Below, piece after piece: positions 969 to 57,973 of a stretch of DNA of 64,000 nt (positions within the stretch are counted from its first letter, which is position 1; each line of letters starts with the position of its first letter). The position numbers and the translations under genes were made by a program. The notes below the pieces were generated by a model, which had not been told where the DNA came from, made no database searches, and worked only from the letters and a program-made list of their open reading frames with translations. Source of the DNA: Podarcis liolepis (taxonomy: Eukaryota); the NCBI GenBank assembly GCA_965112155.1, contig OZ218098.1. One strand, given 5' to 3'.

Positions 969-3364
969 GTAACAATTTTTGGTTATAAAATAAGTAAATA
1001 ACTTGCTGAAAAGCATTTTGCTCATTGCTTCAGCATTCTAGGTGTATGAAAACAATCACATTCGAAGCTAGACAGTGGGACTGTCATCACTTAAGAGAGC
1101 ATGAAGGACAATTAAAAATGGAAAGAAGTTTCCTACTTTATACTTTCTTTCCCTTATATCTTCCCCCCTCCTCCTTCTTCTCTGGCATGATTGCAGACTT
1201 GGCATTGAATTATTTCTCTCATCACAAGTGGGATCAGCATTGCCTGTAATTGTGTGAAAGACTAGCTTTTCTACAGGGTAGTATCCAAATACTGAAACGA
1301 TAATGGACATAATCTCAAGAAAGTTAAACCTACATTTGATTCTTACTGAAATTTATGGATTTAAGTGCAAAAGCCTGTTTGCTTCAATGGGACTCAACAC
1401 TTGTGTTCTTCCAGATTTTTTATATAGTCACTCTGTGGGTGTGGGTGTGGGTGGGTGGGTGTAGGTGTAGATGTAGCTTTCACTTGCCAAAACAGTTGGC
1501 TAACTACTTTCTTCCTTTCTTCTGTAAAGCGCAAGAAGAGCGCAGTCACATACCTGAACAGCACAATGCATCCTGGGACACGTAAACGAGGTAGGTGTCT
1601 CATAATAGCACCTCCCTGTATGTTTATTTCCCTTTCGTTTGGACTGAAATAAAACAATATAGAAAATAGTTTTGTGGTACTGAATACACATAGTAGGTAT
1701 GCTGTAACCCTGGTAGGCAGCTACTCTACAGAAGCATCCTTTGTTGGTAGGCTTTGGGGGTAATCTGGAATGAATAAGGATATATATGGGAGAATTTCCT
1801 GTGTGTAAACTGCCCTGGGCCAGTAAAGATTCCCAACCCAGTTTAGTAAATGTAACCCGTCATGCAGACTAGAAGGGGGGTGCCAAGGTGGTAACTGAGC
1901 TCCCATTCTGAGACTCTTCCTGGGTAGTGACTAAGTGCGTTTGGTCCTATGTTAGGACTCACTGTTTATGAAATTATTTCTTGTTCTGTTAAGAACATGT
2001 TCAGGTTTCTTTGAAAGGCGAGTTACTTGATATTTGATGAAATCGTGTGGCAACCGTGGTACTCTTAAAATTATTACAGGGATGCTTGCAAAATTCTTCC
2101 TACCCAATTTTCTCCTTAGATTTCAAGGTTCCAAATTCTTGATCTTGCTTGTGGAATGGCACCAGTAATCTGCCATTTTTCCATTTTTAATGTACAGACT
2201 TTGTTTAGGCTGCTACACATGCAGTTCACTAGTTTTCCATTTGCATATTCCCCCCCACACACTTTACAGGTTACTAATCCATGCCAGCAATGGCAAACGT
2301 TGATTAAAATACTAACAAAAAAGGCAGTAGTAACATGGTCATATCTATTCATGTGCCCTAGTGTGTATCTGTAAACTGTTAAGGGTTAGGAGTAATGTTG
2401 CAAATGGAAAACTGGCAAACTGCATATAAGCCAGTCCTGAGATGTATTTTAGAAATTGTCCATTTAAAACTATAAGGCAGGTAAAGCAGAGCATGGGGCA
2501 GCCAATCCATGGAACAAGAAAAGAACTTGGGATATCTATTTTATCCCTTGACCTAAACTATGCTGCTTCCACTGTGAACAATATATCTAGTATTAAAGGA
2601 AAGAGAGCCCAGTTGAAACTGAGATGGTGTGAACTGTGGAAGGTTTGCTCAGAAACACTTTTCCTTGAGGAGGGAAGGTTTCTGCATTCTCCCTGCATCT
2701 TGAACCTTTAAGTGTTGTTTGGTGGTCTCCAAGAAGCAGATGATGCACAGTTTTTGAAGTTTTGAGATGAAGCCCTCAGCTTCAGTAGGTTGTGACAGCT
2801 ATCGACATGGTTGAGTTCAAGAGAGGTTAAGTTAATTCCTAATGCTTTGGGTGACCCTAAGATCACCAGAGAATGTATGTTGATGGCCAGGAATCAGAAA
2901 GGTACTATATCATCAATGCTTGTTGTTGCTAATACATCACCAAGCATGTCTGTTTTGTGTCTGAGACAAGTTACTACTGATCTGTTCTCGTGTGGTGGTT
3001 GCTGTGTTCTTAGAGCCAGCCAATTGCACAGTAGAACTAAGCTTGGCTTTGAGATTGATTTATTTTGACTCTGTTCAGTGCTAAATATCATGGGTGAGCA
3101 CTGAATGCCCTTTCTGTAATGCTTTCTAATGTTTCCTCTGCTCCTGGGCCTGTTGTTCAAAAACAAATGGCCAGGTCAGAGGACGTAAGTTGTATAATAC
3201 TTGATATTTCAAATGTTAAAAGATACATGCACTATGTACCTAATAGGTTGAGTGTGTTCATGCACATGAGTGTTTGGGTGAGTTATTAGGTAGCTCAGTA
3301 GAGTGCATTTGTCTCTTTCTGTTTAGCCCACTGATTTGAATTTGCTTAAAATGATAGTGCCTGA

Positions 3365-3426
<62 letters not shown>

Positions 3427-6400
3427 GTCTTTGGCAGCTTTTGGCATTTTGAAAATAAGGTGATGGTCTCATTGCAGTTTACATTGAGCAGGCTTTACTT
3501 TCTCCAAAAACTGCTGCCATAACTGCTCAGTTCAGCTATTAGTGCATTTCCCCAGGAGATCAGGTGTTCAGAGGAGCCCTTCTTTCCTTGCATAATTTGT
3601 TTCTCACCTGAAGCAAAATTGGATGTACTGGGGTTTTTTTGCACTGATGTTGGCTTTCTGTCCCTCAACACACAGAGGGCATTGGCCTTCAGTGCCACTT
3701 TCCATCAGAGTTGTTAGGTGCCATTTACTGAAGATAATGATTACTATACATGTTTAATTTGATCTTCCTGCCTCTTTTCTCAGTCTCTAGCTTCACTTAT
3801 TGACTGCTTAAATATCTTTATTTATATATTCCTCTCTGAGCATATGCCTCTCATCAATCACCAGAGTAGTGGTAATACAAAAGACAAAGATTGGTGTTTC
3901 CTACAGTGTTGTGATTTCACTTGGAATAATAGCACACTTTATCGTGAGTTATATCTTCCTACAGTCAGCAGGATAGGATTTTATCTTAACTCTTCATACT
4001 TGCAGATTTGCTTTGTTGAGGCTTTCTCCCACTTAGGCTACCTTACAGCTCCTTTTGCTGAGAGAGATCTCATGGGGTTGCAGGCCATAATTTTCTCTGG
4101 CATTTGTGGAATGTTGTGAGTTTTTCTTAGCACAAAGGTGGTATTTAGATGTAGGTTTCACCTTAGGCTCACTGAGGGTGATTTACCAATGGTCATAACA
4201 ATGTGATGGAGATACCATGATAAACTAGAGTGGTAGAAATCATGGCAGCTTTTCTTTGCCAGTGGAATTTGGGGCTGGTAAGTTAAAAGTTAAAGACATT
4301 AGTGTGGTTATATAGATATATTGGGAGTAGTGCTCTTTCTGAAGGCATGTGTTTTCTCTCTTGTGATACCATCCTTCCTTACACAATTCTCCTTTAAGTG
4401 TCTTAAAAATAACTTTACAGTCCTGACTTGGCTTTCTTTCACTCGTGACTATAATACTAACTTCTTCTCTGTACTACATCACTTCCTTTTTTTCATGCTA
4501 GCCAATGAGGAGCACTGGCCAAAGGTATGTAAGATTATTTCCCCTCCCCTTTTTGTTCCCTTTTGTTAATGTGTAGGTCGTCCACCTAAATACAACACGG
4601 TGCTGGGGTTTGGGGCTCTGACCCCCACATCCCCTCTGTCCAGTCATCCTGACTCCCCTGAAAATGAAAAGACAGAGACCACATTTTCTTTCCCCGCAAC
4701 TGTTCATCCTGTGTCCCTGCCCAGCCCCAGCTCCACAGACGTAAGTAATTCTTCCTGAGAGGTTTGCTGTTCGAAGAGACCGTGGAGACTTCAGAATTTG
4801 GTTCTTTAGATGCACTGGTATTATGGTAAACTGCAATAATATGACCCCCTTCTTCAGCCCCCTACACTTCTACTTGTACCTATTCACCCCCCCCCACCCA
4901 AACTCTGGAGTAGTATATATATATCTATATGATATCCACAGGACATGCCAGAATGTTCATATCCTAGAATCGTAGAATTGTAGAGTTAGAAGGGGAAATA
5001 TTTCTATAAGCCCTTCCCAGATGCACAGTGATGCAGTGAATTAAAGACAGTGCATATGTGATATATTTCAGCAATCTAGTGGCAGGAGGAGAACAGGTCC
5101 TGTCACACAATTACGTATTATTACTGAATCAATAAAGTAAGGAGAAATTCTTGCTCAAGATAGTTGGACACAGCGTTAGTGGAATCAGAGGGAGTGCCTT
5201 CACTGACACCTGGCAGTTGCTTCTCGTTTATGGATTCTGCATACCTATCTGGGGAAAAGTTTTCTTTTCTGTGAAAGTATCCTCCTGGTATGTGAGCCCA
5301 GTTGCCTGTTCTGCCAGTTTAGCACAGGCTGAATTAAAGTTGATCTAATCCATAGCTTGATCTGCAGCACTGTCTGTTTTTGGAGAGTGTGAGTGGTAAA
5401 TTTTTATTACTCAGAAGGAAGGTAAATCCATCATTCTCATGATAGCTGGGTTGGAATTGGAAGTTCTGGACTCACAACCTTGGTCAAGTCTCATCACTTC
5501 TCTGTACCTTCGTTTCCTCATAATAAATAGCTCCATGGTTGTAAGACCCAACTAATGAACACATTTTACACACAATCAGACTTGCATAACTTTTATGTTC
5601 TAGTGGGCTGCACTAGATGTTCCTCCAATCTGTTTTTTATGCTGCTGAGCTAAGAGCCTCTGCATCTCATTCATGAAATATGCAGCTTGAGGATTGCTCT
5701 AACTTACATAACTGTATCTGTAGCCTCATTGTTGAAGCAGCCAAGAATAGCCAAATCAGGAACACCATCAGTATCTTTTCTGCACTGCTGGGTATTGCAA
5801 AAGATAAAATCAACAGGCAGCATTCCTATAGGATGCAAGTTCTGTGTTAAGAGCCATAGTCATTCATTCTCTAGGTATTGTATTATTCATGAAATCTCCC
5901 AAACTATCAGAAGGCAGTAGTAAAAATTGATCCAAACAAAGAGGACTTTCCTGCTGATTTAGCATGGTGTGCACACGTGCACATGAACACATTCTACTTA
6001 TAACAGGTTTGACAAAGGTTGCTAGACTCTTAAGCACATTGGCTTTATAAATAAAGCACTAGGACAGTGAGCTCATTGTCATTCCAGTTGATGTCTGTTG
6101 CACATTTTTACATAATGTTCTGAGCTTTCGGTAATGATGTAATTCTGATTAGCCATCTGAATAGCCATCAGCCTTCAAGCCTAGAGTGTTTTGCTAAATA
6201 TCCATCCACCAAACATGTACACACATCACATGAATGTATTGCTTCCTCCAGAAATTCACCTCCTATTTCACTTCAGTGGTGTGTGTTTTTTGGAGAATTT
6301 ATGGTAAATAGGTTTGTTTTCAGTTGTGTCCCTCCACTCACCAAAGATTCTTTAATCCAATATAGGATTCCCTTAATGGAATGGGGGCAGGCATTGTTTG

Positions 6401-9400: not shown

Positions 9401-12400
9401 GCTGGATTAAGACTCATGTCATTGGTCCTCATCCATGACAGGGCACCAATCAGCAGATCCACTGCCTACCTGCAGAAGATGACATAAGAGCTGTGTGTCA
9501 TCAGCATGGTGATGACAGCACACTCTCAGACGCTGTCTAATCCCACCCAGCATTAAGTGAAACGTGGGTGACAAGTTCTGCACCTCCTGGAGAACCGAAC
9601 CTATTGCGGCCCTTTAAAAATGCTTTCCATACAGTGGATCACTGGGACTTTCACCCCACATTTAATTTCACTTACTTGGAAATAAGATGGGTGTGATCCT
9701 TAACTATATAAATAAGTGATCTGTGCTTTATAGTTTGAAATTGTACTAGGGTAGACATGGTGGCATTTGAAGAAGCTGTGGCCCTTGACGTTCCTTGTGG
9801 TTCTTTTCTGTCTGAAGAAAGTGGATCTAATCGTCAGGCACCCTTTGGTAGCTTTCTTTCTGTGTTTCATGAAAAGGATATTATTTGGGGGATTTCATTC
9901 ACTTAGGACTTTACTTTGAACTGGAATTTAGTTTTCAAAGTTTGTAAGTTCCCTTTCCCCCCTCTAATTTTATAGGGTGATATCCATGAAGATTTTTGCA
10001 GTGTTTGCAGGAAAAGTGGGCAGTTGCTGATGTGTGACACGTGCTCACGTGTGTATCACTTGGACTGTCTGGACCCACCTCTGAAAACTATTCCCAAGGG
10101 CATGTGGATCTGTCCCAAATGTCAAGACCAGGTATTGTTTGACACAAAAGGGGAAGCCTCTCGCAATGGTTCTCTGCTTTTGGACAAAATGGGTGGGGCA
10201 CATGGCTTAGACTTTGAGAGGGTGACAATATCTGACCTGAATTGAAATGGCCTCACAAATTCAAAGCCATCAAACGTTTGCTTTTCTGTTCCACATCTCA
10301 GGGTACTAAACAGCCATTTATTTGCCATGGCAAAGCTCGAAGACTTACGGGGAAGATTCCCTTTGATCCACTTGCATCTTTATCTATTTCTGCTTCCACA
10401 AAATAATGTTAGCTTCATTCTACAATACATGGGTTGGAAAGTCCAGTATTTTAAGGTCTAGGACAAAGCTACATGCTGGAAAAGCAATGTTTGCATGATA
10501 ATGCAGGGACACAGGGCATTTTACAGGTGAGAGTTAGCAGGCATGAGATAGATGCTAAATCTTTCCCCATAGCTGGCTCTGAGAGCAAAAATAAGCCCAG
10601 CTGGGGAGGAACGTTTTGTGATGAATAACCACATGATTAAATACCCGTCTCCCACCCACCAATTCTCTTCTGGAAATGCCCCGCTACTCCTGCATTGCTG
10701 TTAACCAACAAACACATTTGTGGGAAATGCATGTTTGCCAAAGTAACATGTAGTTTTCTCCACGGAGACTGCTCTTTGCTATCAGAGTGTTTTTCCTTTA
10801 GCTAATTAGATCAGCAGTTTGTGAATCATGAAGTCACAATCCTCTCTACTGGCAAGTTTTAAGATCAGATGTGTTGTCTCTTCATTCCTGTTCAGCTTGT
10901 TAAAATTTCATCAGCAGAAAATGTTTGTAGATGCAAGGGAATGTACAAAATTGCTGACATGGTGATTAAACAGGCTTCCCTTGTGGGAGGTTTAGCACAG
11001 ATGTGTGAGTATTTCATGCTATTAAATCTTGAGGGTCTTCCCGAACTATTGTGGAGGTTTTTGTGTGTGCAGTAAATGCAATGTTTACTTGCTTGAGGTG
11101 CGTGTTGAGTTGTGGATCAGGCATCTTTTTTGGATAATGCTTCTGTTGAAGAATTTCCCCAGTACTCAAACCTCAGTATTCTTTTGCTTGAAATTTCCTT
11201 CCCCTCTCCCCCCTCTCCATTTCAGCATACTATTGTGAGTGCTGTGTATAAGCTGGTTTTGAATATCACAGGCACATATGTTTTAGTGATTAGTAACACA
11301 ATTCCCCTTCTTCCTACCAGTGCCTCACTATTTTGTTATCCATTTAGGGATTTTTATTTTTTTTAATTAATTCTTTAGGGGCTGAATGCTTGCCTGCTGA
11401 AACAACCAAGCATAGAAATGATCATGTAATTGCCTTCATTTTGTTTTTTAATGTAGACTTTAAAGCAACAAGGCTACCCTTCCTTACCATTTTATGAAAT
11501 TTATGTTTTTTATTTAGTTCTCGAAAGGTTACGTGTTATCCCCATGCACTTGATAGCACTGCAGCACAGCCTTCCTCTCCCTCCTTTTGATATGTGGATA
11601 TAGTCTGGTTCATTTCTCTTTCCCATTGGCCTCTCACATCCATCACATGTCAACAAAGCATCAGGCTTCTTGTCCCGGACCAGAACTAGCAGCAACCCAA
11701 GAGTAGAACAAAGGGGGATTTTAAGTTGTTTTATTGCCTGGGAAGGGCCTAAGAAGAGAATGGCATTGATTTTAATAGTTGTTGTGTAAGATACCCTTTA
11801 GTGTGTGTCATCTTTCCTAGAGGTAGAACATGTCAGCCAAGTGTTCCTTCTCCTTTCTTTCAGATGCTAAAGAAAGAAGAAGCAATCCCGTGGCCAGGAA
11901 CTTTAGCAATTGTTCATTCATATATTGCCTACAAAGCAGGTAAGAAAATGGTGCAGGGCTTGGCTTGGTTTTCTTTTCTTTGGAAAATGTTACTTTGAGG
12001 AAGGGAGTAGGATGTTTGTTTTCAGAAGGAAATTAAGAGCTGACTGCATGATAACCCCAGTAATGAAATGGATATGACAGCTTCATCTGACTCTCTTTAT
12101 GTCTGCACCTGCAGCTTCAGGTATGGTCCTGTACTGGCTTTCCATTGTGCAAAAGCAGCTGAGAGATCCCATCCGCAGGGCATAATTGATACAATTGATG
12201 TACTCTCTTCCACAGCAAAAGAAGAGGAAAAACAGAAATTACTGAAATGGAGTTCAGATTTAAAACAGGAAAGGGAGCAGCTAGAACAGAAAGTCAAACA
12301 GCTCAGCAATTCTATAACAGTAAGTATTGCTGTGCTAAATGATGGTTTGTTTATCCTCTGTGTTCCGCTAGAAGCTACAGCCGTGAATCTTAGAAAATGA

Positions 12401-13033
12401 CTGTTTACTGTGACCAATCACGGTATCAGTTCTGAGCCGTGCTTCACCACAGCTTTGTCATGGTGGTGTTTTTTAAAAGTCTCAGAGGCTTCTTATGTTT
12501 GTTAGAGCTTCTTTTTCTCTGCCAAGTCATAGTTGTAATCTATATGCTGTAGTCGTGGCTGTGAAATAGCATTTGCTTTCTTTGAACTCTTTGGTTTGCT
12601 ATGTGGGCCGTATTTGGTATGGGAGCCATGTTGTATCCACCAGGTACTCTGACAAAGAATCTGTTTTTGCAGTCTCTTGTGGATCTTGGGATCCCTTTGC
12701 TTTAACTTTCATTCTCGTTTGGGCCTTTTTTTATGAGCGCACTCATTAATGCAATGTCGTTCCAATCTGCTTCAGAAATGTATGGAAATGAAGAACACCA
12801 TCCTGGCAAAACAGAAGGAAATGCACAGTTCATTGGAGAAGGTAAAACAGTTAATTCGCCTCATCCAGGGCATCAACCTTTCAAAACCCATAAACTCTGA
12901 GGGCAGTTCCGTCGCCATCTCCAATGGCATGGACTCCACCAATAACGCAAAGGCTGCCGCCGCCTCCACCCCAGCCTCTTCCCCCTCCCAGAGCTGCATG
13001 GTGAACTGTACCAAGGGCGACGAGACTAAATAA
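889..13033 (+). CDS. PHF21A: PHD finger protein 21A (BHC80; LSD1/CoREST complex H3K4me0 reader), 3' portion. Exons 889-968, 1530-1590, [4502-4524 OR 4577-4740], 9976-10131, 11864-11939, 12216-12319, 12776-13033; 5' exons lie upstream of the window
   Basis: Spliced translation [53 protein letters not shown]...[64 protein letters not shown]...[30 protein letters not shown]...GDETK* matches recalled vertebrate PHF21A. All introns are GT-AG and phases are consistent. Confidence 0.97.
1530..1590 (+). CDS. PHF21A: PHF21A exon (61 nt): [20 protein letters not shown]
   Basis: Acceptor tctgtaaag|, donor GAG|gtaggt; branch-like gctaac at ~1499; phase 0->1. Confidence 0.95.
3365..3426. repeat. (TAT)n microsatellite, ~20 units
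   Basis: Perfect tandem tattattat... run. Confidence 0.97.
4502..4524 (+). CDS. PHF21A: PHF21A neuronal-type 23-nt microexon (A)NEEHWPK, mutually exclusive with 4577-4740
   Basis: tttcatgctag|CCAATGAGGAGCACTGGCCAAAG|gtatgt; phase 1->0, same as the next exon; peptide matches the recalled mammalian neuronal PHF21A isoform. Confidence 0.92.
4577..4740 (+). CDS. PHF21A: PHF21A canonical AT-hook exon (164 nt): [55 protein letters not shown]
   Basis: gtgtag| ... GAC|gtaagt; completes the RKRGRPPK AT-hook; phase 1->0. Confidence 0.95.
6683..6819. mobile_element. Short palindromic hAT(Charlie)-like MITE, squamate high-copy family
   Basis: tgtggccttccagatgttg ... tttggagagctatatg arms; near-TSD ctctaggg/ttctaggg; related copies at ~28971, ~32279, ~37840 and ~60088. 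Confidence 0.6.
9976..10131 (+). CDS. PHF21A: PHF21A PHD-finger exon (156 nt)
   Basis: tatag|GGTGATATCCATGAA...GACCAG|gtattg; C4HC3 PHD pattern intact. Confidence 0.97.
11864..11939 (+). CDS. PHF21A: PHF21A exon (76 nt): [25 protein letters not shown]
   Basis: ctttcag| ... GCAG|gtaaga. Confidence 0.96.
12216..12319 (+). CDS. PHF21A: PHF21A exon (104 nt), coiled coil [35 protein letters not shown]
   Basis: ccacag| ... ACA|gtaagt. Confidence 0.96.
12776..13033 (+). CDS. PHF21A: PHF21A last coding exon, stop TAA at 13031-13033
   Basis: cttcag|AAATGTATGGAAATG...GAGACTAAATAA. Confidence 0.96.
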
Positions 13034-22764: not shown

Positions 22765-34289
<11,525 letters not shown>

Positions 34290-56526: not shown

Positions 56527-57973
56527 TCCACAGATGCACCCAGCAGCACTGTGGGAAATGGGTGCTCTAAAACACTCAACGTTTTGCTGAGGCACGGTAA
56601 ATGCAAAAGAAAATAATGAAGAGAAAATATTTACAAGAGGCACAAAACAGTATGTTAGTAAGCCATCCTTCTTCGCCAGCTTCCACATGCACAGCGTTAC
56701 CAGAGAATTCTTTGTCTTCAAGCTGAAATCTCTGCCTAGCAAGAAGATTTAATTCCTGTTCTCAGAACAGGTTTGTCAAGCACAGTGCATATTCCCACTT
56801 GAAGAAGTTATTAAGCATTTATACAAGCTCAAATTATAAGATTTGCTGCAAATGCTGCCAATACCAACAGGAATTTACTTGCTAAGGCATCACAGTCAGT
56901 CCAAGCTGGGTAGGACACAGAAGAACAGGGAACAGACATTTTGTGAGGAGCATTGCATTTACTCATTTCCACCATGACAATTACTTTTAATACACAGTTG
57001 TATTCTAGCTAGAAAGCTTCCAGTGGGAGGATTACCCTTGAGTATGTTTAATACCACCCCAATAATTATCTTTCTAAAAACATGGATGTAAGATTTAAAA
57101 ATGAAATTCTTCACATCAGTTTCTTGACTCTATGAACCATTTGCTTAGCATTTTAGCTATTACATGCAGAAAAACCCACAGCCTGACTAAATAGCCACTT
57201 TCCTGTTAGGCTGCTGTGTAAGAGAAGATGACACAACCTGCCAGGGCTTGAACAACTAAGTGTGCTCTTTGGAAAAAATCAAACAATTGCACCATTCACC
57301 TGGAAACTGCAGGAACAGCAAAACCTTACGGTAAACTTGTGTGTTTTGGCATTTTAGGTTTAGAAAAACTCTAACCCCATAGCTGGATTGCTCAAGTCGG
57401 AATGCAAGCTCAGCAGCAGTACAGGAAAGAAACCCAATATAAAAGGTGATGCCTTTGGGAAGTACTGGAAGCAGCATCACACAATAAAAGTGTTAAAGGA
57501 ATCAGTGGAACACAAATTTTACAGAGGCATTTCACAACACACAGCATCCAATATAGTCTAGTAAAAATAAGGCTGAGATAAAATAAATCATTTTTAGGAT
57601 AACATTTAAGCTGGCAGAAGTAGCAACATACTAATAGCTGCAATGTCCAGTTTGATGCAAAATGAGGCTATTCTCCGTCACAAGTTGCTACTGGAAGTGC
57701 CTGAAAATAGAAACAGTTGAAAACTAACAGGCACTGAGGCTGCAGTATCTCAATTTCTATAAGGTAAATAGGTTCCCTTAAGGTCAAATAGGTCCCCTTA
57801 TTTGATTTATTTTTATTATATATCTTCTCTTCTTCCTAAAGGAGGAAATGATTTTAAAATATTTAACAGGAGCATTTGTACCTTTAGTACAACACTCATG
57901 AAGAAAAACCTCTCTAATGCTTTTAACCCAAATACGTATTGTAAATTTCCTTCACTATACCAGCATCGACATA

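What the first reader, a model, noticed from the sequence alone, without database searches (positions are those of the whole stretch)
4455..4740. Sterically enforced mutually exclusive switch: 23-nt microexon versus AT-hook exon in PHF21A
Seen: a 23-nt exon (4502-4524, ANEEHWPK) and the 164-nt exon (4577-4740) have identical phases (1->0). They are separated by only 52 nt (4525-4576), below the usual minimal vertebrate intron. Including both would also shift the frame. The microexon has a perfect TACTAAC branch point at 4455-4461 (also a QKI-type ACUAAY motif), a CU-rich tract (PTBP-type) and a UGC just before the AG (SRRM3/4-type microexon enhancer). Established: mammalian neurons express a PHF21A isoform in which this microexon removes the RGRP AT-hook. 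Inference: the switch and its cis-code are conserved in lizards and are easily missed by annotation.
Basis: partly seen in the sequence, partly recalled or inferred. Interest (0 to 1): 0.7.

Follow-up and report, generated by a model that had tools for sequence, protein, structure and literature searches.

The report
Lizard copy of PHF21A neuronal switch
This is the lizard copy of a splicing switch already known from human and mouse neurons, in which a 23-base mini-exon replaces the exon for a DNA-gripping hook in the chromatin protein PHF21A; the two exons likely cannot be joined because the second exon's predicted branch point lies almost on top of the first exon's splice donor.

Summary
Observation confirmed base for base. 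It is the lacertid orthologue of the published PHF21A E14-n/E14-c switch: human has the same 23-nt and 164-nt exons, catalogued as mutually exclusive in 2017; SRRM4 dependence is shown in human cells and mouse. It is not missed by annotation: RefSeq models of four lacertids and many other reptiles carry ANEEHWPK.

Three corrections. (1) The mouse intron is about 69 nt, so short length is not the conserved feature; what is shared is that the adenosines sit at +3 to +13 after the microexon donor, followed by an A-free tract, which points to a donor/branch-point clash (predicted, not mapped). (2) TACTAAC/ACUAAY is not conserved (mouse TATTAAC), so QKI is unsupported. (3) A second donor at +4 would make double inclusion in-frame.

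New here: the microexon reaches back to ray-finned fishes, and the paralogue PHF21B in this genome keeps the same 23-nt exon and UGC but no AT-hook exon, so skipping it gives an immediate stop. No junction reads from this species were examined.

The parts
1530..1590 (+). Upstream constitutive exon (human E13), ends in phase 1 after ...TRKR; supplies the R and the first base of the G of the RGRP AT-hook core
4455..4461 (+). Predicted branch point of the microexon, TACTAAC, branch A 4460 at -42
   Evidence: mouse has TATTAAC at about -38 (counted by eye)
4462..4495 (+). Extended pyrimidine-rich, AG-free tract; region folds less than shuffles (z +1.96)
4496..4498 (+). UGC at -6, SRRM3/4-type enhancer; same position in mouse Phf21a and in this genome's PHF21B
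4502..4524 (+). 23-nt microexon (E14-n), phase 1 to 0, ANEEHWPK
4525..4576 (+). 52-nt intervening intron: adenosines at +3, +7, +8, +10, +13, then none for 30 nt (4538-4567), then +44, +45; second GT at 4529
4532..4537 (+). Predicted branch adenosines of the AT-hook exon (+8 and +13 from the microexon donor; -45 and -40 from the acceptor)
   Evidence: inference; not mapped
4577..4740 (+). 164-nt AT-hook exon (E14-c), phase 1 to 0, GRPPKY...SSTD
9976..10131 (+). PHD-finger exon, phase 0 to 0, common downstream exon
11864..13030 (+). Last three coding exons of PHF21A (starts 11864, 12216, 12776; stop at 13030)

Best explanation
This is the lizard orthologue of the known PHF21A neuronal microexon switch, and the two exons likely exclude each other because the AT-hook exon's predicted branch point lies within the microexon donor's footprint. 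In non-neural cells the weak microexon is likely ignored, U2 binds just behind its unused donor (predicted +8 or +13) and the AT-hook exon is included. In neurons SRRM3/4, acting through the UGC at -6, likely activates the microexon; U1 on its donor would then block that branch site, so the donor splices to the PHD exon and the AT-hook is lost. Nonsense-mediated decay of double-inclusion and double-skip messages would be a back-up. Shown here: anatomy, frames, orthology, adenosine layout. Shown in papers for human and mouse: neuronal specificity, SRRM4 dependence, loss of DNA binding. Inferred: all regulation in the lizard, and the branch position in any species.
For: Human exons have the same lengths, phases and microexon peptide and are listed as MXE cluster 544. 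Human exon PSI 2.3 with GFP, 95.7 with SRRM4; mouse exon is in the Srrm4-mutant table. 186 of 323 retrieved proteins carry the microexon alone, 111 the AT-hook exon alone, 1 both, 5 other, 20 without the anchor. No A at -35..-19 of the AT-hook acceptor, against 2-7 at the 7 other acceptors of the gene and 2 of 99 pyrimidine-rich YAG sites of the window lacking one. Every possible branch A in the lizard intron is at most 45 nt from the donor, under the ~50-nt steric threshold. Mouse intron is longer yet has As at the same +3, +7, +8, +10, +13 and no more until the last 7 nt (by eye). In the mouse microexon knockout, whose guides cut just upstream of TATTAAC and at the exon/donor border, neurons make the AT-hook form at normal level, so that exon is not silenced separately and does not need the upstream branch point.
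Against: No lariat map and no lizard junction reads were seen. The +8 and +13 sites match the U2 consensus poorly (2 of 6 in my crude score) while TGTTAAT at -8 scores 4.5 in the lizard, though it is absent in mouse. Human introns of 43, 49 and 56 nt are spliced, so the threshold is not absolute. One pangolin gene model (P0162) joins both exons through the +4 donor; it is a 'hypothetical protein' with no read support seen. Only two species could be compared at DNA level. The sequence of the mouse knockout allele was not seen, only the guides. Protein counts come from 90% clusters of gene models and are not usage frequencies.
Confidence: 0.8

Rival explanations
1. Same switch, but exclusivity is only apparent: the short intron is spliced at some rate, and double-inclusion messages are removed by nonsense-mediated decay.
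For: Double inclusion at the main donor shifts the frame and stops early. Ultra-short human introns are spliced; the mouse intron is above the 65-nt threshold. 60% of human MXE clusters would frameshift on joint inclusion.
Against: If double inclusion were common, the mouse knockout aside, neurons would waste most messages; the +4 donor would give a stable in-frame product, yet 1 of 323 proteins shows it. The intron is not G-rich (8 G, no GGG), unlike 12 of the 22 listed human ultra-short introns. The A-free tract is kept in two species.
Confidence: 0.13
2. The AT-hook exon is repressed in neurons by its own factor binding the pyrimidine tract, independently of the microexon; closeness of the exons is incidental.
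For: 30-nt pyrimidine tract in front of the exon could bind PTBP-type or other repressors (factor identity recalled, not tested).
Against: Deleting the microexon in mice restores the AT-hook form in neurons at normal level. SRRM4 alone flips the human exon to PSI 95.7.
Confidence: 0.04
3. In this lizard the microexon is a conserved relic or is not neuron-restricted.
For: No reads from this species were examined; tissue of origin of the reptile gene models is unknown.
Against: Peptide identical to human, intact splice sites, UGC and branch motif; models with the exon in four lacertid species.
Confidence: 0.03

Closest known systems
Human/mouse PHF21A (BHC80) E14-n / E14-c (PMC11864812, PMC11605454; MXE cluster 544 in PMC5740500; VastDB HsaEX0047035 in PMC7935315 supplement)
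   Same: Orthologous exons, 23 and 164 nt, phases 1 to 0, identical microexon peptide, UGC at -6, same first 11 intron bases as mouse.
   Different: Intervening intron 52 nt against about 69 in mouse; branch motif TACTAAC against TATTAAC; regulation not measured in the lizard.
Steric-interference mutually exclusive exons: alpha-tropomyosin 2/3, alpha-actinin (seen only as references in PMC7969005), OGDH 4a/4b (PMC7969005, passages)
   Same: Predicted branch point of the downstream exon lies under 50 nt from the upstream exon's donor, followed by an uninterrupted pyrimidine tract.
   Different: Predicted distance is 8-13 nt (OGDH: 25-41, mapped); the exons are unrelated in sequence and length rather than duplicates; the upstream exon is an SRRM4-type microexon; branch not mapped.
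SRRM3/4-dependent neural microexons (PMC3464207, PMC12871342)
   Same: At most 27 nt, UGC close to the acceptor, branch point set back (-42; reported median 45-47), weakly structured upstream region.
   Different: Not a multiple of 3 and not a cassette: it replaces an exon rather than adding residues.

Membership tests
PHF21A E14-n/E14-c switch (orthologue) | Gene is PHF21A | tested here: met
   PHD exon 96-100% identical to named PHF21A proteins; last exon 84 of 85 to Podarcis models; LARGE2-like exons next door (synteny recalled)
PHF21A E14-n/E14-c switch (orthologue) | 23-nt and 164-nt exons, both phase 1 to 0, ANEEHWPK versus GRPPKY | tested here: met
PHF21A E14-n/E14-c switch (orthologue) | Microexon included in neurons, AT-hook exon elsewhere | not tested
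   No junction reads of this species examined; shown for human and mouse
SRRM3/4-dependent microexon | Length 3-27 nt with UGC near the acceptor and extended pyrimidine tract | tested here: met
   criteria
SRRM3/4-dependent microexon | Inclusion depends on SRRM3/4 | not testable with these tools
   Shown for the human and mouse orthologues only
Steric-interference MXE | Donor-to-branch distance under about 50 nt | tested here: met
   All candidate adenosines at +3 to +45; threshold
Steric-interference MXE | Branch point mapped by lariat sequencing; spacing mutant allows double inclusion | not testable with these tools
   No PHF21A row found in one lariat table, which was cut at 4.0 million characters
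Steric-interference MXE | Exons are tandem duplicates (usual for the class, not required by the mechanism) | tested here: not met
   8 versus 55 residues, unrelated
QKI-regulated branch-point exon | Conserved ACUAAY at the branch point | tested here: not met
   Present in the lizard, absent in mouse (TATTAAC) and in PHF21B (CCTAAC)

The most novel reading that the evidence does not exclude
The microexon arose before the PHF21A/PHF21B duplication and now does two different jobs: in PHF21A it swaps out the AT-hook, while PHF21B lost the AT-hook exon and needs the same UGC-marked 23-nt exon to stay in frame, so SRRM3/4 acts as an on-switch that licenses PHF21B protein in neural cells and sends the message to nonsense-mediated decay elsewhere. 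PHF21B would be a fixed 'neuronal isoform' of the ancestral gene.
Probability: 0.4. Interest if true: 0.6.

Novelty: already known. Interest (0 to 1): 0.3.

Why it matters
The switch itself is published and its reptile form is annotated, so the finding as written adds little. Two by-products are testable at once. First, a concrete lock for a disease-gene switch: U1 on the microexon donor against U2 at +8/+13; variants in the first 13 bases of this intron would be predicted to disturb both isoforms, and I found no paper stating this for PHF21A (searches; it may be among the 57 unnamed steric cases of PMC5740500). Second, PHF21B keeps the microexon without the AT-hook exon, which would explain its neural restriction by splicing and show an alternative isoform becoming a separate gene; no paper in the library holds both 'PHF21B' and 'microexon' (subscription papers and VastDB itself were not searchable).

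Tried and rejected
Relatives' genomes: none held, so DNA comparison is limited to mouse (printed table) and the paralogue. Sequencing runs: no RNA holder listed; this is no evidence either way, and no junction counts were obtained. Mapped human branch points: nothing for PHF21A in Table S1 of PMC5378181 (table cut, and my hg19 prefixes rested on a recalled offset, so the blank means little); PHF21A not in the supplement of PMC7969005, whose list covers introns of 60-500 nt. Shared use of TACTAAC by both exons: rejected, since the first AG after it is the microexon acceptor and the mouse knockout guides remove that site. RNA structure as the lock: rejected, the region folds worse than shuffles. 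Decayed AT-hook exon in PHF21B: 57 AT-hook peptides against the introns gave only short or opposite-strand hits, none covering GRP (best E 9e-5 on the minus strand; output shown was cut at 1500 characters per search). Anolis-specific 28-residue insert: not found in the window. Earlier scan findings: none on this locus or gene. Pfam scan covered 47 of 187 long open frames.

Full report
1. Observation. Exon 1530-1590 ends in phase 1, the microexon 4502-4524 and the exon 4577-4740 both run phase 1 to 0, and the PHD exon starts at 9976. Joined by coordinates, either exon alone gives an open frame; both, neither, or retention of the 52-nt intron give early stops. TACTAAC lies at 4455-4461 with no AG before the acceptor, and TGC at -6. 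The stretch is single-copy in the genome.

2. Identity. The gene is PHF21A. The last coding exon matches Podarcis models at 84 of 85 residues and Lacerta and Zootoca at 83; the AT-hook exon matches them at 54 of 54, so the window is from a lacertid. The switch is published: the microexon is neuron-specific in mouse and human and abolishes AT-hook DNA binding (PMC11864812; abstract, sections 8 and 10 whole, passages); PMC11605454 calls the exons mutually exclusive and reports more excitatory synapses when the microexon is deleted (passages). The supplement of PMC5740500 lists the human pair as cluster 544, frame 1-0, 23 nt ANEEHWPK and 164 nt (rows). SRRM4 dependence: human exon PSI 2.3 with GFP against 95.7 with SRRM4 (PMC7935315 supplement row; cell line not checked); mouse exon in Table S2 of PMC3464207 (whole table; passages); a review says the same (PMC5891588, passages). 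A minigene (PMC12234916, passages) and saturation mutagenesis of the human exon (10.1101/2025.11.05.686847, passages; figure and supplements not seen) already exist, so part of the proposed test has been done. PMC13388176 (passages) found no ethanol effect on this exon although Srrm4 fell.

3. Annotation and age. Of 323 proteins from three searches and one cluster look-up, 186 carry the microexon alone, 111 the AT-hook exon alone, 1 both, 5 something else and 20 lack my anchor, two of which show the microexon and two the AT-hook by eye. These are clustered gene models, not usage. Lizards and placentals have ANEEHWPK; birds, turtles, marsupials and monotremes mostly ANEDHWPK; snakes ANEEQCPK; sturgeon, paddlefish, gar, eel and arowana ANEDPLSK; bichir ANEDSLTKQ. 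'Easily missed' is therefore wrong for reptiles. It was absent from the 2 coelacanth and 5 caecilian models retrieved, which may be loss or a gap in annotation.

4. Mechanism of exclusivity. The human threshold is 65 nt, but introns of 43, 49 and 56 nt are spliced (PMC4463651, passages), and the mouse intron printed is about 69 nt by my count. What mouse and lizard share is the adenosine layout: +3, +7, +8, +10, +13, then a long A-free pyrimidine tract. Most branch points lie 19-35 nt from the acceptor and at least 8 nt from the AG (PMC5378181, passages). The AT-hook acceptor has no A in that window; the 7 other acceptors of the gene have 2-7, and 2 of 99 pyrimidine-rich YAG sites in the window lack one. 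In the lizard every candidate is at most 45 nt from the donor, including a good-looking TGTTAAT at -8 that mouse lacks; in mouse the usable ones are within 13 nt. Both fall under the ~50-nt threshold for joint U1 and U2 binding (PMC5740500 and PMC7969005, passages). The mouse knockout fits: its guides cut just upstream of TATTAAC and at the exon/donor border (my placement of the guide sequences on the table), and neurons then make the AT-hook form at normal level. So that exon has its own branch point and is excluded only when the microexon is present in cis. The branch position is inferred and matches the consensus poorly.

5. Corrections to the cis-code. UGC and the last 8 intron bases are conserved in mouse; the perfect branch motif is not (TATTAAC), so a QKI role has no support. 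The set-back branch point and weak folding (z +1.96) fit neural microexons in general (PMC12871342, passages). A second donor at 4529 pairs with U1 at 7 of 11 positions against 8 for the main one; alone it shifts the frame, but joined to the AT-hook exon it is in frame, giving [15 protein letters not shown]. One pangolin gene model has exactly this (P0162). NMD cannot police that product; the steric block can.

6. The paralogue. The second-best PHD match in the genome is PHF21B, 71-94% identical over ten segments to alligator PHF21B. At G000:C5:3764679-3764701 it has a 23-nt phase 1-to-0 exon, ANEDPSWQ, with ATGCTAG before it, GTATGT after it and CCTAAC at -32; 29 of 43 bases around the exon match PHF21A. 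No AT-hook exon was found between its neighbours. Skipping puts a stop at the second codon position of the PHD exon, 157 nt before the next junction. Of 14 named alligator and monotreme PHF21B proteins, 12 carry ANEDPCWK, 2 are truncated, none has an AT-hook. Lamprey PHF21A and homologues of Lingula, Capitella and oyster carry the AT-hook; among 35 representatives that are neither A-like nor B-like, 19 have GRP and none the microexon pattern. The simplest history (inferred, no tree built): AT-hook ancestral, microexon gained before the duplication, AT-hook exon lost in B. Whether B's exon is still regulated is open. For: UGC kept; Phf21b is cortex-enriched (PMC7462064, passages); active SRRM4 raises PHF21B mRNA 13.6-fold over an inactive mutant in MCF7 (0.05 to 0.68). 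Against: those levels are tiny and could follow REST inactivation; PHF21B is not in the SRRM4 inclusion table; its mRNA falls from progenitors to mature neurons (12.2 to 5.5); its donor is stronger (9 of 11) and its branch motif nearer, as in a constitutive exon. I saw 2 of the 5 PHF21B rows, and 7 of 19 supplement files were not searched.

7. Verdict. Real, conserved and already known; interest 0.3. The additions are a sharper, untested lock (donor against branch point at +8/+13), a date older than the split of bony vertebrates, and the PHF21B observation. Not-in-print claims rest on searches of an open-access library; Appendix Fig. S19 of PMC5740500, which may name PHF21A as a steric case, could not be seen.

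Noticed in passing
G000:C5:3764679-3764701 (+), locus L010: PHF21B carries the homologous 23-nt exon (ANEDPSWQ) with UGC at -6 but no AT-hook exon; skipping gives an immediate stop, a candidate splicing-controlled on-switch.
   Followed up: partly
window 4525-4534: Second donor GT at 4529 would give a 27-nt microexon that joins the AT-hook exon in frame; one pangolin gene model (P0162) shows this form.
   Followed up: partly
window 9976-10131: The PHD exon is symmetric and is skipped in gene models of lacertids, Anolis, a gecko, turtles, coelacanth, sturgeon, paddlefish, gar and eel, some together with the microexon (neither AT-hook nor PHD). The human event HsaEX0047037 has PSI 88 in lung.
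   Followed up: partly
P0061, P0070, P0103, P0111, P0114, P0120, P0174, P0179, P0200: Snakes changed the otherwise near-invariant peptide to ANEEQCPK (one ANEEQCQK), losing the HW; milkfish P0324 has ANEEALPE.
   Followed up: no
P0139, P0147, P0148: Anolis models have a 28-residue insert that splits RKR from GRP, another way of breaking the AT-hook; no match in this window.
   Followed up: partly
P0040, P0124, P0016, P0048, P0121-P0123: No microexon form among the coelacanth and caecilian models retrieved, although fishes and amniotes have it.
   Followed up: no
P0343: A lamprey fragment has DDPTWR just before its PHD finger, resembling the PHF21B microexon peptide; weak hint that the exon predates jawed vertebrates.
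   Followed up: no
window 22929-24623 (-): Open frames with Glyco_transf_49 (PF13896) hits, likely exons of LARGE2, the convergent neighbour known from human (recalled).
   Followed up: no
window about 56587-56660 (-): The only minus-strand TACTAAC is followed by a 65-nt AG-free pyrimidine-rich stretch and an AG, like a set-back acceptor.
   Followed up: no
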